From IMG/VR virus record IMGVR_UViG_2585427750_000023, positions 1 through 22,590 of that record: a stretch of DNA of 22,590 nt. The stretch is one strand, 5' to 3'. The position numbers and the translations under genes were made by a program. Positions 1 through 9,809 of the stretch are shown piece by piece. Within the stretch, counting starts at the first letter, position 1; each line of letters opens with the position of its first letter. The notes beneath the pieces are model-generated. The model searched no databases. It had not been told where the DNA came from and saw nothing but the letters and a program-made list of their open reading frames with translations. This DNA is from a virus (Duplodnaviria; Heunggongvirae; Uroviricota; Caudoviricetes).

Positions 1-933
1 ATGGACAACGACAAAATTGATCAACACAGCGACGAAATTGAAGTTGAGAGCGAAGAAAAAGAGCGCGGCAAAAAAATAGAAATAGATGAAGACCGACTCC
101 CCTCCCGGGCGATGGCAATTCATGAGCATATCCGCCAGGATGGTGAAAAAGAGCTGGAACGCGACGCAATGGCGCTACTGTGGTCAGCCATTGCGGCGGG
201 GCTGTCGATGGGCGCTTCGCTACTGGCAAAAGGGATATTTCATGTCGAACTGGAAGGAGTGCCAGGCAGCTTCTTACTGGAGAATCTCGGTTATACCTTT
301 GGTTTTATTATCGTCATTATGGCCCGCCAGCAATTATTTACCGAAAACACCGTGACTGCGGTACTACCCGTCATGCAAAAACCGACAATGAGCAACGTCG
401 GCTTACTTATGCGATTATGGGGCGTCGTGCTGCTGGGTAATATTCTCGGGACAGGTATTGCTGCATGGGCATTTGAATATATGCCTATCTTCAATGAAGA
501 AACTCGCGATGCATTTGTCAAAATCGGCATGGATGTGATGAAGAACACCCCCAGCGAGATGTTTGCCAACGCGATCATTTCCGGCTGGCTGATCGCCACT
601 ATGGTTTGGATGTTTCCTGCTGCGGGTGCGGCAAAGATTGTGGTGATTATATTGATGACCTGGCTTATTGCACTGGGTGACACCACCCACATCGTTGTCG
701 GTTCTGTTGAAATCCTCTATCTGGTGTTTAACGGCACGCTGCACTGGAGCGATTTCATCTGGCCCTTCGCACTACCTACTTTAGCGGGGAACATCTGCGG
801 CGGCACCTTTATCTTCGCGTTAATGAGTCATGCACAGATTCGTAACGACATGAGCAACAAGCGTAAAGCAGAAGCACGCCAAAAAGCAGAACGTGCGGAA
901 AACATTAAGAAAAATGATAAAAACCCAGCATAA
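1..933 (+). CDS. yfdC: Inner membrane protein YfdC, formate/nitrite transporter (FNT) family; host gene flanking the prophage
   Basis: 310-aa ORF starting at window position 1; multi-TM hydrophobic profile; sequence recognised as E. coli YfdC, the gene known to lie immediately upstream of argW. Confidence 0.88.
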   Translation: MDNDKIDQHSDEIEVESEEKERGKKIEIDEDRLPSRAMAIHEHIRQDGEKELERDAMALLWSAIAAGLSMGASLLAKGIFHVELEGVPGSFLLENLGYTFGFIIVIMARQQLFTENTVTAVLPVMQKPTMSNVGLLMRLWGVVLLGNILGTGIAAWAFEYMPIFNEETRDAFVKIGMDVMKNTPSEMFANAIISGWLIATMVWMFPAAGAAKIVVIILMTWLIALGDTTHIVVGSVEILYLVFNGTLHWSDFIWPFALPTLAGNICGGTFIFALMSHAQIRNDMSNKRKAEARQKAERAENIKKNDKNPA

Positions 934-1008
934 ATGGCGAGGGTTTAAGCAATCGAGCGGCAGCGTACTTACCCCGCAGTCCATTAGCGGGTATACTCAT
1001 GCCGCATT

Positions 1009-1083
1009 GTCCTCTTAGTTAAATGGATATAACGAGCCCCTCCTAAGGGCTAATTGCAGGTTCGATTCCTGCAGGGGACACCA
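1009..1083 (+). tRNA. argW: tRNA-Arg (anticodon CCU), integration target of the prophage
   Basis: 75-nt cloverleaf read by hand: acceptor stem GTCCTCT/AGGGGAC (one G-U), anticodon stem AGCCC/GGGCT with loop CTCCTAA (anticodon CCT), T-arm GCAGG-TTCGATT-CCTGC, discriminator A plus encoded CCA; candidate -10 TATACT at 992..997. Confidence 0.93.
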
Positions 1084-1244
1084 TTTATCAGTTCGCTCCC
1101 ATCCGTACCAGTCCGCAAAATCCCCTGAATATCAAGCCTTCCGTAGATTCACAGTTCGTAATGGTTCGCGTCAGATCGTTGACAGCCGCACTCCATGACG
1201 GGTAAAAAGTGGATAAAATAATTTTACCCACCGGATTTTTACCC

Positions 1245-2402
1245 ATGCTCACCGTTAAGCAGATTGAAGCAGCAAAGCCGAAAGAAAAACCATACCGCCT
1301 ACTCGATGGTAATGGCCTGTACCTTTATGTCCCTGTGTCAGGGAAAAAGGTATGGCAGCTTCGCTACAAGATTGACGGTAAGGAGAAAATCCTGACCGTA
1401 GGAAAATATCCGCTAATGACTTTGCAGGAGGCAAGGGATAAAGCATGGACTGCGAGGAAAGACATCTCGGTTGGCATCGATCCGGTAAAAGCGAAAAAGG
1501 CTTCGTCTAACAACAATTCCTTTAGTGCGATTTACAAGGAATGGTACGAGCACAAGAAGCAAGTCTGGTCAGTAGGCTATGCAACTGAACTTGCAAAAAT
1601 GTTTGATGACGACATTTTACCTATCATCGGCGGCCTTGAAATTCAGGATATTGAGCCGATGCAACTGCTGGAAGTAATCCGCAGATTTGAAGATCGCGGC
1701 GCAATGGAGCGAGCCAACAAAGCACGCAGAAGATGCGGCGAGGTTTTCCGTTACGCTATTGTCACTGGTAGGGCTAAATATAACCCGGCACCTGACCTTG
1801 CAGACGCCATGAAAGGATACCGCAAGAAGAACTTCCCGTTTCTTCCTGCAGACCAGATCCCGGCATTCAACAAAGCACTGGCAACATTTTCAGGAAGCAT
1901 CGTATCGCTCATTGCGACCAAAGTTTTACGCTACACAGCCCTAAGAACGAAAGAGCTTCGTTCCATGCAATGGAAGAACGTCGATTTTGAAAACAGGATT
2001 ATCACTATCGACGCCAGTGTGATGAAGGGACGCAAAATTCATGTGGTTCCTATGTCAGACCAGGTGGTTGAACTTCTCACTACGCTAAGCTCAATCACCA
2101 AACCAGTATCAGAGTTTGTTTTTGCCGGACGCAACGATAAGAAGAAGCCAATCTGCGAGAACGCGGTGCTACTTGTGATTAAACAAATCGGCTATGAGGG
2201 TCTGGAAAGCGGTCACGGATTCAGGCATGAATTCAGCACGATTATGAACGAGCACGAATGGCCTGCTGACGCTATTGAAGTGCAACTTGCACATGCCAAC
2301 GGCGGATCTGTGCGCGGGATTTACAACCATGCTCAGTATCTAGATAAGCGCAGAGAAATGATGCAGTGGTGGGCGGAATGGCTTGATGGGAAGGTGGAGT
2401 GA
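1245..2402 (+). CDS. intS: Prophage tyrosine integrase (P4/CPS-53 IntS-like, N-terminal DUF4102-type arm-binding domain)
   Basis: 385-aa ORF from ATG 1245 (MLTVKQIEAAKPKEKPYRLLDG...), recognised as IntS-type integrase; directly downstream of argW in the same orientation. The ORF-track start at 1209 is a GTG extension and is not preferred. Confidence 0.88.
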   Translation: MLTVKQIEAAKPKEKPYRLLDGNGLYLYVPVSGKKVWQLRYKIDGKEKILTVGKYPLMTLQEARDKAWTARKDISVGIDPVKAKKASSNNNSFSAIYKEWYEHKKQVWSVGYATELAKMFDDDILPIIGGLEIQDIEPMQLLEVIRRFEDRGAMERANKARRRCGEVFRYAIVTGRAKYNPAPDLADAMKGYRKKNFPFLPADQIPAFNKALATFSGSIVSLIATKVLRYTALRTKELRSMQWKNVDFENRIITIDASVMKGRKIHVVPMSDQVVELLTTLSSITKPVSEFVFAGRNDKKKPICENAVLLVIKQIGYEGLESGHGFRHEFSTIMNEHEWPADAIEVQLAHANGGSVRGIYNHAQYLDKRREMMQWWAEWLDGKVE

Positions 2403-2581
2403 TCCACCTTAACTACTATCTAAGAGCACAAAGCCTTGCAATCCAGTGCAAAGCTTTGTGTGTCTCAGTTTTGTCTGCCATCACATGGAGATAATTAACC
2501 TATAACGCACATAGATGGTTGATGTTAATAAAAGCGCTGATCATCTCCTTAAGAGTATTTTAAGAGCATTTGAGTTATTAG

Positions 2582-2609
2582 CATGGAGGCGTATTGCCTC
2601 CATGTTTTT
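2582..2609 (+). terminator. Intrinsic terminator in the int-tailspike spacer (stem CATGGAGGC / GCCTCCATG, loop GTATT, then TTTTT on + strand)
   Basis: Perfect 9-bp inverted repeat 2582..2590 / 2596..2604 followed by T5 at 2605..2609; A-run on the other side, so it may act weakly in the tailspike direction too. Confidence 0.6.
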
Positions 2610-2610
2610 A

Positions 2611-4848
2611 CTACCATGTCGCATCTATGTAGAACGTTGGAGATGTAGTGGTGGACCCTTCAATCGATATTTGTCCTGTTGAAGCATTAATGGTGGCCAT
2701 TGCCATGCCAAATGAAACGCCATCAGCAGTGAACGGTACAGGGACATTTTTGGTTACTTTTGGTCTGCACCACCTCGGAAGCGTTAGAACAGTATTGCCA
2801 TTCGCAAATGAAGTGGCTGCCAGTTCAATATTAATTGAATTGGCAGTTAAACTTGACGGTGCCTGTACTGTTACGTTTGTTCCAGCCCACCATTGAACAG
2901 CTGCTCTTGGCGTGTAATCAACACGCGACCACCAGTCGATAATGGCAGAGCAGATAATTTCCGCATACAGACGATACCCTAACTGGCTTTGGTGAATGTC
3001 ATCACGCAGAAGTGGGTCGTATTGCGTGTTGAAATACTCTGGATATGGGGCCGGGAGCTGGTGAGTTGTTGTTACACAAATGACGTTATTGCCATATTTC
3101 ATCATCTGGCGTTTACCAGCTTCTCGCAACTCTGCGACACCGTCGTAGTTAGAAGATGGCTGGCCAGCCCCTCCAATAAATGACTGGCTATACCACATCC
3201 ACGGCTCAACCCAAACAGGGATACGACCAAGGCCATTGCAATATAAGACAAACTCATCTATCAATGACGCCATATAATCGCCGTTTTGGTTTGCCTGCCC
3301 TTCGTTAGTTCCGGCAACCATAATAACGATGTAAGCATCACCCGGCCCCTGAGCCTTCAGGAGATCTAACTGTTGCCTCATTGTCTGTCCGGCAACTGCC
3401 TTGTTTACAATGCTATGTGAACGGTGGCCGTTCGCTCCATCCATTAATTGCGGAATGTACGAGCTGAACGCGGAAATGAAATCCTCAGCTGTACTATCAC
3501 CGTGGATAAGGATATTAAGTGGAGGCTTACCGTGCACGCCATTATCAGAGGTGTAGCTGCATAATCCAGTTACACGCGCAGCACCTCCAGATGCCGTGGT
3601 CAGTGCAACAAACCCAACTTCGTATACATCCCCTACATCAGCAGTATCAAAGGGCAAACGTATCCCAACGCCATTCATCGTTATCTGCGCCCAGTTTTTA
3701 CCTTGCAGTGATACGCCAACGGTTGCTTTGCCCGGGGCGTACGACAGTAAACCTCCTGGCAGCGGGAATGGAGTTCCTTCTGCTACTGGACCACCAATTG
3801 GTTTCTGTCTATAAGACCACTGTGTAGCACCTGGTGCCCCATAGAACATCATCCAACCACCAGAGCATCGCAGAACAATCCCAACTTCTGAGGCGGCCTG
3901 AGATTCCATACGAATATGTGCAGAAATATGCTCTCCAATATCTATTGGTGCGAACAGGCCTGTTGTACGGTCAGTAGTTAAGGGGAAGATAGCTGCGCTA
4001 TCTGAGGATATGGTGACTTCACCTTCATAGAAGAACGTGTCACCATTTATGGAATAAACTTTACAATCTGACCATTCCACTCGCTTCATGCGAATAGGGT
4101 TTCGGTTGAGGATGGCCTGCTTAGCCAGATAATCCACTTCTCCACCGGTTGCTTTAAAGTTCAGGTGCGTAAATTCAAACGTACCCTCCCCCTCGTACTG
4201 CAACGATTTAAACAGTGAGTACAGATCACTGTCGAATCTCAGGGTGACATTTTTATCAATGATTACTTTACTGTTCGCAAGGAAAGAAGCGTTAGCAGCT
4301 GTAGACGGTACGGTGTACACCATCTGATTTTTTGAATGATTAGAGAAGTAAACATACCCGTAGGTCGCAACACTATCGCGCCACGCCTGGACTACGTTAG
4401 AATTATCATAACTTGGAATTTTTGTGATCGACTGCAAAACAAGATCTTCCTGTGAGATAGCTCCGTTTACCAGATTAACACCTCCTTGAGATGCAAGATC
4501 TTGCCTGAGTTGGTCAGGGTCATACTTCAGCACATTCGAAAAATAGAACTGCTGCGCACCATACGCATCATAAACAGCCATAGAATGGCCTTGCACGGTT
4601 ACGAATTTGGCAATCTGTCCGTTATATACCGGATATCCAGCAGCGTTAATGATGATTGGTTGCGAAACAGGAACGTGAGAACCATCTTCGTTCTCTACAT
4701 AAACCTGAATCTGGTTTTCAGTATTTACCGGGTCAGTGTCAATTTTACCGATATAAATTTTGCCATTGGCTACGGCTTTAAAAGAACGCGCCATAGTGAA
4801 GAGTTGCGAAGGCATCGATACGATCACATTGGCTGTAATGTCTGTCAT
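2611..4848 (-). CDS. Tailspike protein: P22-family head-binding N-terminal domain fused to a divergent receptor-binding region containing an SGNH/GDSL-hydrolase (esterase) motif set
   Basis: 745 aa; N-terminus [11 protein letters not shown]...[20 protein letters not shown]...[13 protein letters not shown] matches the conserved P22 gp9 head-binding domain; further downstream [11 protein letters not shown] (aa 447-455), GTNE (513-516) and DDIH (616-619) match SGNH blocks I, III and V; RBS GGAG 8 nt upstream of ATG. Confidence 0.85.
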
Positions 4849-4906
4849 TTAATTTGCTCCAGAGACAAGGAATCGCCGCAGCGTGGCCACGGTGAATTTT
4901 GGGCAT

Positions 4907-4929
4907 AAAAAAACCCAGCCGAAGCTGGG
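4907..4929 (-). terminator. Rho-independent terminator between ant and tailspike (minus strand: CCCAGC-UUCG-GCUGGG followed by U7)
   Basis: Perfect 6-bp GC stem 4914..4919 / 4924..4929 with CGAA/UUCG tetraloop, run of 7 A on + strand (U on - strand transcript) at 4907..4913, about 20 nt downstream of the ant stop. Confidence 0.75.
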
Positions 4930-4948
4930 TCGTTGCGTTGGTTATCTG

Positions 4949-5827
4949 TCAGTAGTTATGTACTGAAGGAGGTAATTCTTTATTCTTAAGTCTCATCCAT
5001 GCGGAAAGATTCGTTGGTCCGTCTGGCTCATTAATATCAACATCTCGTGTGTGGTTTATTAAAACGTCTCTCGCCATTCCGATAACATACGAGAATTCAT
5101 GACCGTAGTCGTAGCATCTTCCGGAATAGTTCGATTGAATTTGTTTTAATGCCGGATACAGTTCGCGGAATAATGCCTGTGAACGGTTAGCATAATCCCA
5201 TAGCCATACAAGGCTGTTTGCTTCTTTTGCAGAAAGCTCGTTTGCTTTCTTCTCTTGTTTGCCGATAAACTCGCCTTCAAGCACTACCCTGTGGATGTAC
5301 TCTACGGCCAGCGGGATTTGTTCAATTGAAAGTTCATCAATGCTGTCAATACCAAAACGCTGATGAACCATATTGTATGCATCGTCATAGCGAAGTCCTT
5401 TCTTTCCTACCAGCATGTTTACTGCATCGCGTAGCGGCGTTCTTTCCTCAACAGTGGTTTTCTTGCCTTTCACATACTCGCCATGTTTGCGAATTGAAGG
5501 TAGAACTTCTGCTGTTACCCACTTGCGGAATTTGTGCGGGACCGAACCTTTATTGACAGCATCGCGGCAGCGCAGAACCAATGTATACATACCTGATTCG
5601 CTCACAATGCTTAGATTCTGCTCACCACCAAGGGTGTAACTTAAAGTTACTCCCTTTTCATCGTCATCAAGTGCAGTAAGCGCCTTGCGTGAGTTAGTCA
5701 GGGTTAAAGCATCACAAACATCTTTTGCTACAAACCACGGCTCACCGCATTTGTTGATGACGAGGATTTCACTGTCGCCGAATTTGAAGATGGTGAAATC
5801 GTTTTGTGCCTTTGCTATACTTTTCAT
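4949..5827 (-). CDS. ant: Antirepressor Ant (Bro-N domain N-terminus, P22 Ant-like)
   Basis: Bro-N signature [28 protein letters not shown] at the N-terminus; preferred start ATG at 5827 with AGGA 9 nt upstream; the ORF-track extension to 5893 begins with TTG and is less likely. Confidence 0.8.
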
Positions 5828-5895
5828 GTCAATATTTCCTAATCCGATTTGTTGATACCGAAGCCCTGACTGTTCCCGCAGTTGGGGCTTCAACT
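5828..5895 (+). ncRNA. Candidate sar-like antisense RNA covering the ant ribosome-binding site (hypothesis)
   Basis: Extended -10 TGcTATACT on + strand at 5813..5821 predicts a start near 5828 directly opposite the ant start; an 11-bp hairpin at 5862..5889 is fully paired only on the + strand transcript (two G-U pairs that become mismatches on the mRNA strand); predicted length about 68 nt. Confidence 0.3.
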
Positions 5896-6093
5896 TTCTG
5901 CTCTATCAGTTATATCTTTCCCTTCATATACTTCACCTATATTGCTAATGCTGGCAGAACATCCAAGATGCTTGTATCTTATGATGTCCAACACGCAGTC
6001 ACTACACAGCATCCGACCTGTTTCTTTAGAGTAAATGTATGTTTGATCAGCGTCTGATTCGCTAATGCCGCAGAAACAACATTCTTTACTCAT
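5890..6093 (-). CDS. Hypothetical small zinc-ribbon-like protein (two CxxC pairs) encoded between arc and ant
   Basis: 67-aa [12 protein letters not shown]...RMLCSDCV with Cys pairs about 21 residues apart; SD GAGGGG 8 nt upstream; start ATG overlaps arc stop in an ATGA. Confidence 0.6.
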
Positions 6094-6230
6094 ACCGTTA
6101 TCCCCTCTCTCTTCAGGCTGTCCATCACCCGTTTAATTACTTCTGCACTAAATGAGCGACACTCCTCCTTTGCTTTTTCTTCAAGAATTTTTTCTAGCTT
6201 CTCTGGCATACGCAGTGTTTTAACCTTCAT
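6090..6230 (-). CDS. arc: Arc-like ribbon-helix-helix transcriptional repressor (below the ORF-track size cutoff)
   Basis: Hand-translated 46-aa [49 protein letters not shown], resembling P22 Arc (..FNLRWPREV..NGRSVNSEIYQRVMESFKKEG..); SD GGAGG 5 nt upstream of ATG at 6230. Confidence 0.75.
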   Translation of the reverse strand: MKVKTLRMPEKLEKILEEKAKEECRSFSAEVIKRVMDSLKREGITV

Positions 6231-6242
6231 TGTATCCTCCGT

Positions 6243-6317
6243 TGTATGTGGTACGCATACATAGTATTTAGGTACGCATTGATAGTCAATAGATACCTAC
6301 ATATCCTGTGGTAAAAA
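6243..6317. promoter_or_regulatory. Divergent immI control region: Pant-like promoter (minus strand -35 TTGACT 6284..6289, 17-bp spacer, -10 TACTAT 6261..6266), Pmnt-like extended -10 (TGgTAAAAA 6309..6317, + strand), and two operator-like dyads
   Basis: Dyad 1 TGTATG-N7-CATACA at 6243..6261 over the predicted Pant start; dyad 2 AGGTA-cgc-ATTGA-tag-TCAAT-aga-TACCT at 6270..6298 over the Pant -35; 9-bp direct repeat GGTACGCAT at 6250 and 6271. Confidence 0.55.
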
Positions 6318-6335
6318 ATTATTCAGGATGCGCCG

Positions 6336-6584
6336 ATGTCTGATCGTAAGTACAAAAACCCTCAAGTGAATCTGAGGCTTCCTGTAGAGATAAAGGAACG
6401 TCTTATTGAACTGGCTGAGGCTAATTCTCGTTCATTAAATGCTGAGATGGTCGCGGCACTTGAAGCGTGGACCGAAAAAAATAAACACATTCAAGCACTA
6501 GACCTTGCAACTATAGCATCACGATTGATAGATCTTGAACACGATGTTGAGACGCTAAAGACCATGTATGGTAAGGATAAATAA
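6336..6584 (+). CDS. mnt: Mnt-like ribbon-helix-helix repressor
   Basis: 82 aa; N-terminal RHH motif NLRLPVEIKERLIELAEANSRSLNAEMV similar to P22 Mnt/Arc; C-terminal helical tail; AGGA RBS; divergent from arc. Confidence 0.85.
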   Translation: MSDRKYKNPQVNLRLPVEIKERLIELAEANSRSLNAEMVAALEAWTEKNKHIQALDLATIASRLIDLEHDVETLKTMYGKDK

Positions 6585-6586
6585 AT

Positions 6587-6865
6587 ATGACAGATACCAA
6601 AGTGAACTTCAGAGAAACCATCTTCAAGGACTCAAGTGATGCTGTAAATGAGTATGCTGATGGATTTGCTTACTCGTCTTTTGGGGATGTCGGAGCAAGA
6701 TTTGGTTCAATAGCATTTTTTAAGCATGTTTCAGACTGGGTTAATAATGAGGAGATTCAGCCAGTTAGATACCAAATTGCCAACATTCGCATGAGTGAAA
6801 ATCAACTTCTTGAACTGGCTAAGTATATAGTTTCTCAACACGAAGAATCAAAAAAATTAAGCTGA
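6587..6865 (+). CDS. Hypothetical protein, first gene downstream of mnt (start 2 nt after mnt stop)
   Basis: 92-aa ORF with AAGGA upstream inside the mnt 3' end; no recognisable motif. Confidence 0.55.
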   Translation: MTDTKVNFRETIFKDSSDAVNEYADGFAYSSFGDVGARFGSIAFFKHVSDWVNNEEIQPVRYQIANIRMSENQLLELAKYIVSQHEESKKLS

Positions 6866-6872
6866 CAGAGCC

Positions 6873-7433
6873 ATGATTTCTTTCCCTGCCGTAAATGCTG
6901 ATCATGCAGCGGAGAAAAAGAGAACTCTTGGTCGTATGGGGTCGACAGGTGGCATAGGAGAAAAGTCCAATGCTTCGCCTCCAGTTACCAAGAATGATAT
7001 AACCAAAAACAATAATATCGCTTATCTTGGAAAACAATACACTGAGGAGCATGCTATGGGCAGCCCATCAAGAGAAGAGATTGACGCGAAGCTTGGTCAA
7101 AACAAAGCAGAAATTGAGTTAATATCTGCTAACATGCGCGCTGAAATTTCAGCTTTCAGAGAATTCCAATCTAAGCAATTTACAGCTATGAATCAGTCCC
7201 TTAATGAAATTAAGGGACAGATATTCGCTAGCAATGGCGAAGTTGCAGGGCTCAAAGGTCAAATTGATGGCATTAAAACATCCATGACCGCGACCCAATG
7301 GCTCGTTGGTGCGGTTCTCGCTATGCTTGCGGTAATCATAACGCTTCCGCAGATTCAATCTTACTTCAAGGTTTCTGAGCCGACTGCGAAGGAAGCCGCT
7401 AGTGAAACCCATGATACCAAAATAAAGCAGTGA
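6873..7433 (+). CDS. Hypothetical coiled-coil protein with a single C-terminal transmembrane anchor; alternative start at 7056 (125 aa) with SD GAGGAG
   Basis: Heptad-like region EIDAKLGQNKAEIELISANMRAEISAFREFQ..., then hydrophobic helix WLVGAVLAMLAVIITLPQI; the 6873 start has a weak RBS, the internal ATG at 7056 has GAGGAG 6 nt upstream. Confidence 0.5.
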   Translation: MISFPAVNADHAAEKKRTLGRMGSTGGIGEKSNASPPVTKNDITKNNNIAYLGKQYTEEHAMGSPSREEIDAKLGQNKAEIELISANMRAEISAFREFQSKQFTAMNQSLNEIKGQIFASNGEVAGLKGQIDGIKTSMTATQWLVGAVLAMLAVIITLPQIQSYFKVSEPTAKEAASETHDTKIKQ

Positions 7434-7461
7434 TCTTACCAATAAAACCTGGGAGGACAAC

Positions 7462-7689
7462 ATGAAGCAATGGCTCATCATAATTGCTGTTTTTTTGCTC
7501 ATTTACACTGTTTTCCCAACATTAAAAGCACCAATGCAAATAATTTCACTAGCAATAATTGCGATTGGTGCTTTCATTGCTGTAGCCGTACTTGTGTTTA
7601 AGGTTTTAAAGTTTTTAGTTTGGCTATCAAAAGATGATGGATGCAAAGTTCATCAAGAAAAAGAAGGCAAAATAACCAAAGTTGACTAA
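7462..7689 (+). CDS. Hypothetical small membrane protein (two predicted TM helices)
   Basis: 75-aa ORF with strong RBS GGGAGG 6 nt upstream; two hydrophobic segments (about aa 5-22 and 26-52); stop overlaps the convergent gp16 stop. Confidence 0.6.
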   Translation: MKQWLIIIAVFLLIYTVFPTLKAPMQIISLAIIAIGAFIAVAVLVFKVLKFLVWLSKDDGCKVHQEKEGKITKVD

Positions 7690-9809
7690 CTGTCACTAGC
7701 GAGCCATGTAATAATCCCCGTGCGGGCAATGGTTTTTGCTTCATCTGTTGATAAGGTTTTCTCCCATCTCTTAAATGCCCCAGATTGCATCAGTTTCCTT
7801 TCTATTACGCGTCTCACTTCTGCTCTGTCTACTGGTGCGTTTTGCAGGCGAAATAGCATTGATTTAAACTCAGGAGAAGACAGTAGAGCATCAGCAGCCT
7901 TTATCCTGCTTGTTTTCCCTGACATCAATGCGGACGTTATCACCCCTGTTGCGCCTACACCAGGAAGACCAGATAAGCTTGTAATACCTTCCGCCGCAGC
8001 AGCTTTTGAGGCTATTCCATAAATTTTTGCGAGACTACCCTTTTCTTTCAGAAAGTTATTAACTTGCTGATCCACAAGACTACTAGCATACTGCTTACCA
8101 GTATTGAGTCTATTCATAGCCTTAGCTGCTTGATAAATCGTATCAAGGCGCTTTGATGCATCTGTGCCAATAGCATCACGGAGAGCCTTCATATTGGCCC
8201 CATTGCGTGACATTCCGTTATACCATTTTACAAATCCATCAACTCCTAATTGCTGACCAGGTGATTTGGCATAGCTGGTAAATGCTTTATTCATTGAGGT
8301 GAGCGCAACTTCCTGCCGCATATCCTTTGGAATCGACTTCATTAATTGCCTAAAGTCGCCACCGTTTCCTTTTGCCATATTAACAACAGCACTTTCAACT
8401 TTTGGAATTGCTGATTGCTGAAGTTTTCTACCCAAGACGGTTACAGCATCATCTTCAATGGATTTTCGTTTTTTTACCAACTCCTTACCAAGCGTCCATA
8501 ATTCCCCTGCGCCATATTTTTCTGCGACAGCCTGTTGGTCATCTGTTATGGCTGCATATAACTTTTTAAGAACACCTGTTTCTTCATCCTTGAATGGACC
8601 AGAGCCTTTGCCAATAGCTTGTCCAACCTGCTTTCTAGCGAGATCTAAACGCCCATACGTTGGCAAGGTGTTTGGATCAAGTCGGTTCAATGTCCGCTTC
8701 ATTATTGGAGATAATTCATCAATTCCACCTATGTCATCAGCAAAATCCTCTAAAAAATTCAATGTATTAGTTGCCTCAATCCGGTCTCTTACAGGAACCT
8801 TTTCGGCAATTTTGTTGTAGATGTTATCTGACTGATTTTGTAATGATGAAATGGTTTTATCAAAATTATCTGCAAGCCTGTCAGAAACCAGTTGCTTATC
8901 AAGGCTTCCCCCAAATGAAGTTATCATTTCATCAGCTTTTCTTCCTAATTCAGTAATAAAACGCTTATGCGCCTCACTAATCTCCGTTCCAGGAAGACTT
9001 GCCACTGCATTATCAAGAGCCCTGACAGCAGGATTATTAGAGATCATGCCTGGAGTGGCATAATTTTCCAGTTCTAGCTCACGAATAGCATTTATCGCGT
9101 TAAAATCAGGATTAACTTCATCGGCGAAATCTTGAATAGCACGTTGCCCACCAATAAATTTATTATCCATTGCGCCAGCAGCTTTCTTTAACGTTGCTTT
9201 AGATGATTTACTACCCATCCCTACGGATGAACGATAAATATCCCCGGCACTATTTTTAATTTTTCCTGCAATCTTCCCAAGCGCTGGACCAACAATCTCG
9301 GCTACAGGGCCAGCCACAGCACCAATAGCAGCTCCGGAAGCAACATCGCTATTTGTTCCATTGGCTACAATAGCCCCTTCTCCAGCACCAAGCCCTGCGG
9401 CGGCAGCCAGCCTTGCCGCCCCTTTCGGAACCTGAGAAATAATCCCACCACCACTAACAAATGGCGCTGCTTGTCCAACAAACTCACCAACATCTTGTGC
9501 GGTTGATGGTTTTGCCGCTAACTTCTGCTGTAGAGACTGAATTGCGGCTTGCTCTTCTGGTGTCATATCCTGAAACAGGCCAACACCTTTACCAACATCC
9601 ATCAATCCACTGAGAACGCCATACATAAAACGGTCGAAACCGTTAGCATTATTAACAACATTTTCCTGTCTGGAATTTTCCTCTGGTGAAACCAAAGGAG
9701 ATTGCTGCTGTTCTGGTTGGGAATCAAGCACAAAGCCATCAGGAAGTTGTGAGTTATCAGGCTGTTCATCCAGAACAAACCCCTCTGGTAAACCTACATT
9801 GGTTGCCAT
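7686..9809 (-). CDS. Ejection (injection) protein, P22 gp16-like
   Basis: 707-aa ORF at the gp16 position in P22 synteny (last gene of the 7/20/16 trio); Gly/Ala-rich segments; start overlaps gp20 stop. Confidence 0.75.
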   Translation of the reverse strand: MATNVGLPEGFVLDEQPDNSQLPDGFVLDSQPEQQQSPLVSPEENSRQENVVNNANGFDRFMYGVLSGLMDVGKGVGLFQDMTPEEQAAIQSLQQKLAAKPSTAQDVGEFVGQAAPFVSGGGIISQVPKGAARLAAAAGLGAGEGAIVANGTNSDVASGAAIGAVAGPVAEIVGPALGKIAGKIKNSAGDIYRSSVGMGSKSSKATLKKAAGAMDNKFIGGQRAIQDFADEVNPDFNAINAIRELELENYATPGMISNNPAVRALDNAVASLPGTEISEAHKRFITELGRKADEMITSFGGSLDKQLVSDRLADNFDKTISSLQNQSDNIYNKIAEKVPVRDRIEATNTLNFLEDFADDIGGIDELSPIMKRTLNRLDPNTLPTYGRLDLARKQVGQAIGKGSGPFKDEETGVLKKLYAAITDDQQAVAEKYGAGELWTLGKELVKKRKSIEDDAVTVLGRKLQQSAIPKVESAVVNMAKGNGGDFRQLMKSIPKDMRQEVALTSMNKAFTSYAKSPGQQLGVDGFVKWYNGMSRNGANMKALRDAIGTDASKRLDTIYQAAKAMNRLNTGKQYASSLVDQQVNNFLKEKGSLAKIYGIASKAAAAEGITSLSGLPGVGATGVITSALMSGKTSRIKAADALLSSPEFKSMLFRLQNAPVDRAEVRRVIERKLMQSGAFKRWEKTLSTDEAKTIARTGIITWLASDS

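What the first reader, a model, noticed from the sequence alone, without database searches (positions are those of the whole stretch)
6090..6230. Arc-like repressor gene missed by the ORF track
The six-frame track omits ORFs shorter than about 60 aa. Hand translation of the minus strand from ATG 6230 (SD GGAGG) gives a 46-aa RHH protein clearly related to Arc. Its stop overlaps the start of the zinc-ribbon ORF, so the operon is arc-orf67-ant rather than arc-ant.
Basis: partly seen in the sequence, partly recalled or inferred. Interest (0 to 1): 0.4.

Follow-up and report, generated by a model that had tools for sequence, protein, structure and literature searches.

The report
Short Arc repressor in prophage immunity region
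The 46-codon gene is real and encodes a short relative of the phage P22 Arc repressor in a standard prophage antirepressor-control region; current RefSeq annotation already names it, so it is ordinary, and the less charted part is the small zinc-binding gene that follows it.

Summary
The minus-strand ORF 6090-6230 starts at ATG 6230, five bases after a GGAGG, and encodes 46 aa. Its TGA overlaps the ATG of ORF67 (ATGA). The protein passes Pfam's Arc threshold. It aligns without gaps to P22-type Arc (41% identity) but lacks Arc's six N-terminal residues. It is 46 aa in E. coli, Salmonella, Pectobacterium and metagenomes, with dN/dS 0.04-0.18.

The surroundings are a complete P22-type immI region: divergent mnt, back-to-back promoter-like sites, a near-invariant 58-bp promoter/operator core, sar antisense RNA (Rfam, 71.6 bits) and ant. 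The window is a CUS-3-like prophage of E. coli.

It is not new. RefSeq names this exact protein WP_001386205.1, "Arc family DNA-binding protein". The CUS-3 GenBank record leaves it unannotated, and a 2008 paper wrote that CUS-3 apparently lacks arc.

The arc-ORF67-ant order is supported by synteny, not by expression data. ORF67 is intact in 40 viral and metagenomic copies and has diverged homologues in the same slot. It is distantly related to the ClpX zinc-binding domain and is not annotated in the RefSeq records sampled. Its function is unknown.

The parts
6090..6230 (-). arc46: 46-aa Arc-family ribbon-helix-helix repressor gene
   Evidence: ORF and translation. Pfam Arc 37 bits. P22 Arc PDB hits. 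41% identity to epsilon34 Arc. dN/dS 0.04-0.18. RefSeq WP_001386205.1 at identical coordinates.
6236..6240 (-). Shine-Dalgarno GGAGG, 5 nt upstream of the arc ATG
   Evidence: Read directly from the sequence.
6261..6289 (-). Pant-like promoter: -35 TTGACT (6289-6284), 17-nt spacer, -10 TACTAT (6266-6261)
   Evidence: Consensus scan. Same position and orientation as Pant in the annotated epsilon34 immI. Invariant across diverged relatives.
6279..6307 (+). Pmnt-like promoter: -35 TTGATA (6279-6284), -10 TATCCT (6302-6307), back-to-back with Pant
   Evidence: Consensus scan; inferred by analogy with P22/epsilon34.
6243..6300 (.). 58-bp near-invariant promoter/operator core of the arc-mnt intergenic region
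   Evidence: Alignment of 7 loci plus SEN22. The core is almost identical even where arc synonymous sites are saturated, while the flanks diverge.
6269..6299 (.). Candidate operator O1: inverted pair TAGGTAYNNATTGA (6269-6282 on +, 6286-6299 on -), 3 bp apart, covering both -35 hexamers
   Evidence: Inverted repeat. Exact pattern matches occur only here in the window. Which repressor binds it is not resolved.
6243..6261 (.). Candidate operator O2: palindrome TGTATGTGGTACGCATACA at the Pant -10/+1, the position Omnt occupies in P22/epsilon34
   Evidence: Flagged as a hairpin. It lies within the 21-bp tandem repeat. ATGCGTACC occurs exactly twice, 21 bp apart. Positional analogy.
5890..6093 (-). 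ORF67: 67-aa C4 zinc-ribbon protein, a divergent ClpX-type zinc-binding-domain relative; its start overlaps the arc stop (ATGA) and its stop is the TGA inside the sar terminator sequence
   Evidence: phrog_7150 E 3.4e-50 and phrog_5259 E 6.7e-5. hhalign 79.8% to a bona fide zf-C4_ClpX cassette protein. Syntenic diverged homologues. Third-position-biased divergence.
6102..6107 (-). GAGGGG inside the arc codons for R-E-G, 8 nt upstream of the ORF67 ATG; a plausible SD for coupled translation
   Evidence: Read from the sequence. The same arc 3' end precedes all cassette types.
5829..5895 (+). sar antisense RNA, complementary to the ant ribosome-binding region and the last codons of ORF67
   Evidence: Rfam RF00262 71.6 bits against gathering 43. 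Two-hairpin fold at -28.2 kcal/mol, z = -6.0. Annotated equivalent in epsilon34.
5793..5821 (+). Psar-like promoter (GTGAAA, 17 nt, TATACT with an upstream TG)
   Evidence: Consensus scan. Same place as the annotated Psar of epsilon34.
4949..5827 (-). ant antirepressor gene (292 aa from ATG 5827; Bro-N plus P22_AR_C domains)
   Evidence: Pfam. RefSeq annotation WP_001386203.1.
6336..6584 (+). mnt: 82-aa Mnt-like second RHH repressor, divergent from arc
   Evidence: Pfam Arc 40 bits. RefSeq annotation. Alignment with relatives.

Best explanation
Positions 6090-6230 (minus strand) encode a functional, naturally short (46 aa) Arc-type ribbon-helix-helix repressor. It belongs to the immunity-I (immI) region of a CUS-3-like, P22-like prophage integrated next to tRNA-Arg(CCT) in E. 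coli.

Proposed mechanism, by analogy with P22 (inferred, not shown here): Arc46 dimerises to form a two-stranded beta-ribbon from residues 2-8. It binds symmetric sites in the 58-bp conserved core that holds the back-to-back Pant and Pmnt promoters. It thereby shuts off its own operon, arc-ORF67-ant, after a burst of expression. The divergent Mnt-like repressor keeps Pant off in the lysogen. sar antisense RNA blocks ant translation.

Arc46 has different residues at the positions aligned to Arc's base-contacting residues (V3/T5/R7 against Q9/N11/R13). Its operator motifs are also different (GGTAC-type in place of the TAGA boxes). It therefore looks like a separate immI specificity type.

Between arc and sar/ant lies a swappable cassette slot. 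In this window it holds ORF67, a small C4 zinc-ribbon protein distantly related to the ClpX zinc-binding domain. ORF67 is probably translated by coupling to arc. Its function is unknown.
For: The gene is real and Arc-like:
- Pfam Arc hit above the gathering score.
- Ungapped match to P22 Arc PDB chains and 41% identity to epsilon34 Arc.
- The AF2 monomer model has an extended N-terminus, helix 10-23 and helix 29-41. With the 6-residue offset this is the Arc layout.
- Length and sequence are conserved.
- dN/dS is 0.04-0.18 across E. coli, Salmonella, Pectobacterium and metagenome alleles.
- RefSeq annotates the identical protein.

The immI context is complete:
- Divergent mnt and ant are present, as is sar RNA.
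- Pant, Pmnt and Psar consensus sites fall at the P22-equivalent places (compared).
- The promoter/operator core is near-invariant with repeats found only there.

A distinct specificity module:
- Three Arc N-terminal types each travel with their own intergenic sequences.
- SEN22 Arc has the identical first 10 residues, diverged helices and the same core.

The cassette slot and ORF67.
Against: - No binding, transcription or translation data exist for this protein.
- Arc46 lacks the residues that align to the first six of P22 Arc. From memory, those help DNA binding in P22.
- The operator assignment is unresolved. The Arc46 beta-strand type and the Mnt type always co-occur with the same core, so covariation cannot separate them.
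- The candidate sites are imperfect palindromes mixed with a 21-bp direct repeat, unlike the P22 Oarc.
- The AF2 confidence is only moderate (pLDDT 64), as expected for a monomer model of an obligate dimer.
- For ORF67, no Pfam hit appears at E up to 10 for the protein itself.
- The ORF67 model is poor and the fold search gave nothing significant.
- PGAP does not call ORF67.
- ORF67 is frameshifted in the O157:H7/O55:H7 lineage, and its Pectobacterium homologue has an internal stop.
Confidence: 0.85

Rival explanations
1. ORF67 is not a functional gene in this prophage. The 263 bp between arc and ant would then be a decaying cassette or a long leader, so the working operon is arc-ant with sar, as in P22.
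For: PGAP does not annotate ORF67 in any sampled RefSeq record. It is frameshifted in about 300 O157:H7/O55:H7 genomes. The Pectobacterium homologue has an internal stop. Salmonella Arc46 loci carry only a short remnant in the slot. Variation within the allele is 2 synonymous to 3 non-synonymous changes, which is uninformative.
Against: ORF67 is intact in all 28 IMG/VR and 12 metagenome copies and in CUS-3/UTI89. It matches phrog_7150 over its full length. Homologues of 30-37% identity keep the start, stop, frame and four Cys at the same slot. Divergence is biased to third codon positions, for example 9/8/24. An ATGA overlap preceded by GAGG is shared by all cassette types. The O157 frameshift is one clonal event in a prophage remnant.
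Confidence: 0.1
2. Arc46 is an RHH protein but does not act as the Pant autorepressor. It might act only with a partner, as an antitoxin-like or partition-type RHH, or only on Pmnt.
For: It lacks the N-terminal arm. It also gives weak hits to TraY, to 'partition protein ATPase' PHROGs and to TprA. The operator assignment is unresolved.
Against: Synteny with P22/epsilon34 arc is exact: divergent from mnt, first gene after the Pant-like promoter, upstream of sar and ant. No toxin or ParA partner is adjacent. The best family match is Arc, above threshold.
Confidence: 0.04
3. The 46-aa ORF is a truncated, decaying remnant of a 53-aa arc, or a chance ORF.
For: It is 7 residues shorter than P22 Arc, and short ORFs are frequent by chance. 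A 2008 comparison listed CUS-3 as lacking arc.
Against: The length is exactly 46 aa across genera. Purifying selection is strong. A strong SD is present. The Pfam hit is above gathering. SEN22 has an annotated 48-aa Arc with the same N-terminus. From memory, natural RHH repressors of about 45 aa exist (CopG).
Confidence: 0.01

Closest known systems
Phage P22 / epsilon34 Arc repressor (53 aa; PDB 1ARR, 1PAR, 1BDT)
   Same: Same Pfam family and the same beta-alpha-alpha layout. Identity is 41% over residues 5-43 without gaps, including the R-S-x-x-x-E helix-B start and the K/R-E-G tail. The gene position in immI is the same: first gene after Pant, divergent from mnt, upstream of sar and ant.
   Different: Arc46 is 7 residues shorter overall, with none aligned to P22's first six. 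The residues aligned to Q9/N11/R13 are V3/T5/R7. The operator region has GGTAC-type repeats in place of the 21-bp TAGA-box Oarc. In P22/epsilon34, arc stops just before the sar terminator sequence, whereas here a 67-codon ORF is interposed.
Salmonella phage SEN22 'Arc-like repressor' (48 aa, YP_009191472.1)
   Same: The first 10 residues (MKVKTLRMPE) are identical. The Mnt type is the same and the promoter/operator core is essentially identical. This is an already annotated phage example of the same short-N-terminus Arc type.
   Different: The helices are about 50% diverged. No cassette lies between arc and ant.
Phage CUS-3 (CP000711) and the UTI89 prophage
   Same: The mnt-arc46-ORF67-sar-ant module is the same, with 94.6% nucleotide identity. 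ORF67 is 100% identical at protein level.
   Different: The GenBank record annotates neither arc46 nor ORF67 (the region is called 'bsq2 boundary sequence'). The ant N-terminal domain and the tailspike differ. A second mnt-like gene is present.
Salmonella phage Emek arc-orf73-ant
   Same: An annotated small ORF lies between arc and ant with the same 4-nt overlap. The Arc C-terminus (...[10 protein letters not shown]) is shared.
   Different: The cassette (orf73, phrog_11805) is unrelated to ORF67. The Arc N-terminus is P22-type.
ClpX N-terminal C4 zinc-binding domain (Pfam PF06689), and the 60-aa 'ClpX C4-type zinc finger protein' WP_047668240 found in the same slot in E. coli 14EC047
   Same: ORF67 has CxxC-(21 residues)-CxxC followed by a helix. 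hhalign gives 79.8% probability, E 1.5e-5, to the 60-aa protein. Both hit phrog_5259. The best PDB hit of the family profile is the ClpX zinc-binding domain (6vfs_E residues 7-43, E 0.025). UniRef names the relative P0037 'ClpX-type ZB domain-containing protein'.
   Different: ORF67 itself gives no Pfam zf-C4_ClpX hit. The spacer between Cys pairs is 2 residues longer than in the 60-aa slot protein. It has no AAA+ module. No structural confirmation was obtained.

Membership tests
Arc / RHH repressors (Pfam PF03869) | Sequence match to the family model at or above the curated threshold | tested here: met
   37 bits against a cutoff of 20.4, E 2.9e-9, profile positions 9-46 of 50. PHROG 'Arc-like repressor' phrog_228, E 4.2e-8.
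Arc / RHH repressors (Pfam PF03869) | Beta-strand, helix A, helix B topology in about 45-55 residues | tested here: met
   The AF2 model has an extended 1-9, helix 10-23 and helix 29-41 at pLDDT 64. The alignment to solved Arc chains is ungapped. The strand is expected to form only in the dimer, which was not modelled.
Arc / RHH repressors (Pfam PF03869) | Obligate dimer that binds DNA through an antiparallel beta-ribbon | not testable with these tools
   Needs biochemistry or multimer/DNA modelling.
P22-type immI Arc (functional role) | First gene of the Pant operon, divergent from mnt, upstream of sar and ant | tested here: met
   Gene order, sar and promoter-like sites match the annotated epsilon34 immI.
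P22-type immI Arc (functional role) | A cognate symmetric operator overlapping Pant/Pmnt | tested here: inconclusive
   The conserved core contains an inverted 14-bp pair and a 19-bp palindrome. Assignment to Arc46 or Mnt could not be separated.
P22-type immI Arc (functional role) | N-terminal arm (P22 residues 1-6) preceding the beta-strand | tested here: not met
   Arc46 residue 1 aligns with P22 residue 7. No upstream start is available, because an in-frame TAG lies at 6299-6297. The arm is a P22 feature, not a family-defining one.
sar antisense RNA (Rfam RF00262) | Covariance-model match above gathering, antisense to the ant RBS | tested here: met
   71.6 bits against 43, full length 1-68, at 5829-5895 on the + strand. 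The ant ATG is at 5827. Fold z-score -6.0.
ClpX-type C4 zinc-binding domain (Pfam PF06689), for ORF67 | Four Cys arranged as CxxC...CxxC | tested here: met
   C5/C8 and C30/C33 are invariant in all five family members.
ClpX-type C4 zinc-binding domain (Pfam PF06689), for ORF67 | Match to the Pfam model at the gathering score | tested here: not met
   ORF67 gives no hit at E up to 10. Four relatives hit only below threshold, best E 0.0052. The 60-aa slot protein of L004 passes with 42 bits against 27.
ClpX-type C4 zinc-binding domain (Pfam PF06689), for ORF67 | Profile-level homology to a bona fide member, or to the ClpX zinc-binding-domain structure | tested here: inconclusive
   hhalign 79.8%, E 1.5e-5. 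Family profile against PDB: ClpX 6vfs_E, E 0.025. Foldseek on a low-confidence model returned only generic treble-clef/RING hits with E above 0.1.

The most novel reading that the evidence does not exclude
The small C4 zinc-ribbon genes coupled to arc (ORF67, orf68, orf63 and the 60-aa ClpX-type protein) may be free-standing mimics of the ClpX N-terminal zinc-binding domain. A P22-like prophage would express them together with Ant. They would compete with ClpX for adaptors or substrates, or recruit ClpX. That would add a proteolysis-level control over antirepressor, repressor or another ClpXP substrate to the known transcriptional (Arc, Mnt) and antisense (sar) layers of immI. One Salmonella relative even carries a ClpP-family gene beside mnt.
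Probability: 0.12. Interest if true: 0.6.

Novelty: already known. Interest (0 to 1): 0.2.

Why it matters
For the arc gene the value is mainly housekeeping. CUS-3-type prophages, which are common in extraintestinal and enterotoxigenic E. coli, do have an Arc. This contradicts the CUS-3 GenBank annotation and a 2008 statement that they apparently lack one and must control ant differently. Their immI region therefore needs no unusual explanation.

Arc46 is also a natural Arc variant with none of the residues aligned to P22's first six and with its own operator set. That could interest people who use Arc as a folding and DNA-recognition model.

The more open point is ORF67. It is a conserved small gene that RefSeq did not annotate in any record sampled. 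It has ClpX-zinc-finger ancestry and sits in a recombination hot slot between arc and ant. Its function is untested.

Tried and rejected
- A longer Arc was rejected. A 68-aa GTG-initiated form is on record for UTI89-type copies (P0009). In this window an in-frame TAG at 6299-6297 blocks it, the extension would lie over the promoter-like hexamers, and PGAP uses the 46-aa start.
- The exhaustive HMMER search with ORF67 returned mostly long TPR-repeat proteins. They match the C-terminal '[13 protein letters not shown]' stretch many times over. I judged these repeat-amplified chance matches. Only the 68-aa P0032 was a true relative.
- Structure prediction of ORF67 gave pLDDT 55, and Foldseek against PDB gave nothing below E 0.1. 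I did not use this as evidence for or against a ClpX fold.
- PDB phmmer with ORF67 alone gave weak RNF4 RING hits. I read these as generic treble-clef similarity.
- Assigning operators to Arc46 or Mnt by covariation failed. Every Arc46-type N-terminus found, SEN22 included, comes with the same Mnt N-terminus and the same core.
The viral and metagenome scans returned only 99-100% identical copies.
- Literature searches for stand-alone ClpX-type zinc fingers in prophages or immI found nothing relevant. The 2024 SieA paper does not treat arc in CUS-3.
- The 'terminator-like' hairpin at 6243-6261 on the + strand is better read as the palindromic operator candidate. No T-run terminator lies on the arc-ant coding strand.

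Full report
**1. Observation**

On the minus strand, an ATG at 6230-6228 lies five bases after GGAGG (6240-6236). It opens a 46-codon frame that ends with TGA at 6092-6090. The product is [46 protein letters not shown]. The stop overlaps the ATG (6093-6091) of a 67-codon ORF at 5890-6093 that carries CxxC...CxxC. No longer form is possible: an in-frame TAG sits at 6299-6297 with no start codon before 6230, and that stretch holds the promoter-like hexamers.

**2. The gene is real and belongs to the Arc family**

- Pfam Arc (PF03869) scores 37 bits against a cutoff of 20.4, E 2.9e-9.
- phmmer against PDB sequences finds wild-type P22 Arc (1arq/1arr/1bdt/1par) at E 5.7e-4, and the engineered single-chain Arc 1u9p at 2.9e-8. 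Residues 5-43 align to Arc 11-49 without gaps.
- BLASTP against the epsilon34 Arc taken from its genome gives 41% identity and 72% positives over 39 residues, E 6e-11.
- An AlphaFold2 monomer model has an extended N-terminus, helix 10-23 and helix 29-41. With the 6-residue offset this is the Arc layout. Confidence is moderate (pLDDT 64), as expected for half of an obligate dimer.
- Homologues in E. coli, Salmonella, Pectobacterium and metagenomes are nearly all exactly 46 aa, and their sources name them "Arc family DNA-binding protein".
- Across seven alleles, pairwise dN/dS is 0.04-0.18 while synonymous sites approach saturation.

**3. Context**

The window is a P22-like prophage (Lederbergvirus). 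Its closest phage record is CUS-3. It lies next to tRNA-Arg(CCT) and an integrase. Over 5800-6650 it is 100% identical to the chromosomes of E. coli O114:H49 90-9280 and ETEC-2264.

The locus is a complete immunity-I region:

- ant at 4949-5827 (Bro-N plus P22_AR_C domains).
- sar antisense RNA at 5829-5895 on the + strand. Rfam RF00262 scores 71.6 bits against a gathering score of 43, and the fold z-score is -6.0.
- ORF67, then arc46.
- A divergent 82-aa Mnt-like RHH gene at 6336-6584.

Consensus scans place a Pant-like promoter (TTGACT, 17 nt, TACTAT; 6289-6261, minus strand). A Pmnt-like promoter lies back-to-back with it (6279-6307, + strand), and a Psar-like promoter is at 5793-5821. These match the layout annotated in epsilon34.

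**4. Operators (inference)**

A 58-bp core (6300-6243) is almost invariant among loci whose arc synonymous sites are saturated, while the flanking leaders diverge. The core contains:

- An inverted pair of TAGGTAYNNATTGA, at 6269-6282 and 6286-6299, which spans both -35 hexamers.
- A 19-bp palindrome at 6243-6261 over the Pant -10/+1.
- ATGCGTACC exactly twice, 21 bp apart.

These exact motifs occur nowhere else in the window.

By position, the upstream site would block both promoters, which from memory is what Arc does in P22. The downstream site sits where Omnt sits in epsilon34. I could not test this assignment. The Arc46 beta-strand type and this Mnt type always travel together with this core, even in SEN22, whose Arc helices are about 50% diverged.

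Three Arc N-terminal types (MKVKTLRMP, MEKEISKILVRMP and P22's MKGMSKMPQFNLRWP) each come with their own intergenic sequence. Arc46 therefore looks like a distinct immI specificity. In the ungapped alignment, V3/T5/R7 replace Arc Q9/N11/R13. That those three P22 residues contact bases is from memory of the Arc-operator crystal structure.

**5. Novelty of arc**

RefSeq PGAP annotates exactly this CDS as WP_001386205.1, "Arc family DNA-binding protein", in the identical E. coli genomes and in UTI89-type prophages. SEN22 has an annotated 48-aa Arc with the same first ten residues.

The gene was missed historically. The CUS-3 GenBank record covers it with a "bsq2 boundary sequence" feature and no CDS. 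[quoted passage not shown] The present analysis removes the need for that suggestion in the case of CUS-3. As a database object, however, the gene is already known.

**6. The arc-ORF67-ant claim**

ORF67 is not annotated in the RefSeq records inspected or sampled, nor in CUS-3. The evidence nevertheless favours a real gene:

- It matches phrog_7150 over its full length, E 3.4e-50.
- It is intact in CUS-3/UTI89 with one synonymous difference, in 28 IMG/VR loci and in 12 metagenome loci.
- In the IMG/VR loci it follows two different Arc types (Arc46 in 16, the 50-aa type in 12) and precedes several Ant types. It therefore behaves as an independent cassette.
- Diverged homologues occupy the same slot with the same ATGA overlap and keep all four Cys. 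These are a 68-aa Salmonella protein (30-37% identity depending on the method) and a 63-aa metagenome protein (29%).
- Divergence between family members is biased to third codon positions, for example 9/8/24.

The slot is variable. It is empty in P22/epsilon34, holds a short remnant in Salmonella Arc46 loci, or holds ORF67, orf68, orf63, a 60-aa bona fide zf-C4_ClpX protein, an unrelated orf73 (annotated in phage Emek) or an unrelated 57-aa ORF. In the eight loci read through the junction, the cassette ends at the TGA inside the conserved (A)GTGAAGCCCC, which is the 3' end of the sar terminator. Where the upstream sequence was read (this window, L010 and L018), the cassette starts just after a GAGGGG supplied by the arc codons for R-E-G. 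No terminator-like site lies on the coding strand between arc and ant.

Counter-evidence exists. ORF67 carries a +1 frameshift in the O157:H7/O55:H7 lineage. There the whole mnt-arc-ORF67-ant module sits between lambdoid tail genes. The Pectobacterium homologue has an internal stop. Co-transcription and translation remain inferred.

**7. What ORF67 is**

- ORF67 alone gives no Pfam hit.
- Four of its five family members hit zf-C4_ClpX below threshold, best E 0.005.
- The family profile's best PDB match is the ClpX zinc-binding domain (6vfs_E residues 7-43, E 0.025).
- hhalign against the 60-aa Pfam-positive slot protein gives 79.8% probability, E 1.5e-5.
- Both proteins hit phrog_5259.
- UniRef names the relative P0037 "ClpX-type ZB domain-containing protein".
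- The AF2 model is poor and the fold search is uninformative.

I therefore call ORF67 a divergent ClpX-type C4 zinc ribbon with moderate confidence. I found no literature on such stand-alone proteins in immI. Any role in ClpXP-linked control of Ant or the repressors is speculation.

**8. Verdict**

The arc gene is an ordinary, already annotated member of a well-known family in a textbook regulatory region, so it scores low. The modest residual interest lies in three points: the correction of the CUS-3 "no arc" statement, the natural Arc variant without the P22 N-terminal residues and with its own operator set, and the conserved ORF67 cassette, which none of the inspected annotations records.

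Noticed in passing
L018 1054-2709 and L019 554-2212 (E. coli O157:H7-type and O55:H7 chromosomes): In these genomes a whole mnt-arc(50 aa or truncated)-ORF67-sar-ant module sits inside a lambdoid prophage, between the minor tail protein L gene and a C40 peptidase gene. The immI module therefore moves as a unit into non-P22 phages. There ORF67 carries a +1 T insertion (TGTTGTTTCTGC becomes TGTTGTTTTTTGC) that destroys the first CxxC.
   Followed up: partly
L010 1968-2504 (Salmonella enterica assembly GCA_043203525.1): A 178-aa ClpP-family protease gene (PF00574) lies directly beside mnt in the P22-like prophage that carries the 68-aa ORF67 homologue. It is a single instance. It is suggestive given the ClpX-zinc-finger ancestry of the cassette, but it may be coincidence.
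   Followed up: no
L009 1199-1357 (phage Emek arc) compared with window 6090-6130: Emek Arc is a chimera. Its N-terminal 38 residues are P22-type, and its C-terminal ...[14 protein letters not shown] matches Arc46. The DSLKREG(I/V)xV end occurs in the loci that carry a cassette or its remnant. P22/epsilon34, with an empty slot, end in ...SFKKEGRIGA. A recombination junction therefore lies inside arc.
   Followed up: partly
window 6360-6377, minus strand (inside mnt, antisense): A terminator-like hairpin plus T-run (CCTCAGATTCACTTGAGG GTTTTTGTAC) lies on the strand of the late operon, which reads leftward through immI toward the tailspike gene. It may relate to the proposed role of the 'ant moron' in setting read-through into the tailspike gene (PMC2629481).
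   Followed up: no
window 5828-5893, minus strand: The mechanical ORF for ant starts at TTG 5893 (314 aa) and reads in frame through the sar region. RefSeq uses ATG 5827 (292 aa). Gene callers in two metagenome loci (L012, L013) made the same upstream extension, which creates false 4-nt overlaps with the cassette ORF.
   Followed up: partly
window 5890-5960 (ORF67 residues about 44-65): The C-terminal half of ORF67 ([22 protein letters not shown]) resembles a TPR-repeat consensus closely enough to pull in long TPR proteins with 4-9 matched stretches in an exhaustive HMMER search. I judged this a repeat-amplified chance similarity. This half is not conserved in the 63- and 68-aa homologues.
   Followed up: partly
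window 2611-4848, minus strand: The tailspike ORF is 745 aa, with only the P22 head-binding domain recognised by Pfam (residues 1-113). In the genome that is 100% identical over 5800-6650 (NZ_CP024240), the annotated tailspike corresponds to window 2809-4848 (679 aa). The receptor-binding part may therefore differ between this window and that genome.
   Followed up: no
window 5806-6057, + strand: An 83-codon ORF (GTG start) runs antisense to ORF67 and through sar. An equivalent 101-codon ORF exists in UTI89 (L003 1442-1747). It is probably a by-product of the near-identical DNA. It was not examined in diverged relatives.
   Followed up: no
PDB entry 9pio chain G (hit): A recently solved 79-aa 'Arc family DNA-binding protein' matches Arc46 at E 0.0017. 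I did not establish what complex it belongs to.
   Followed up: no
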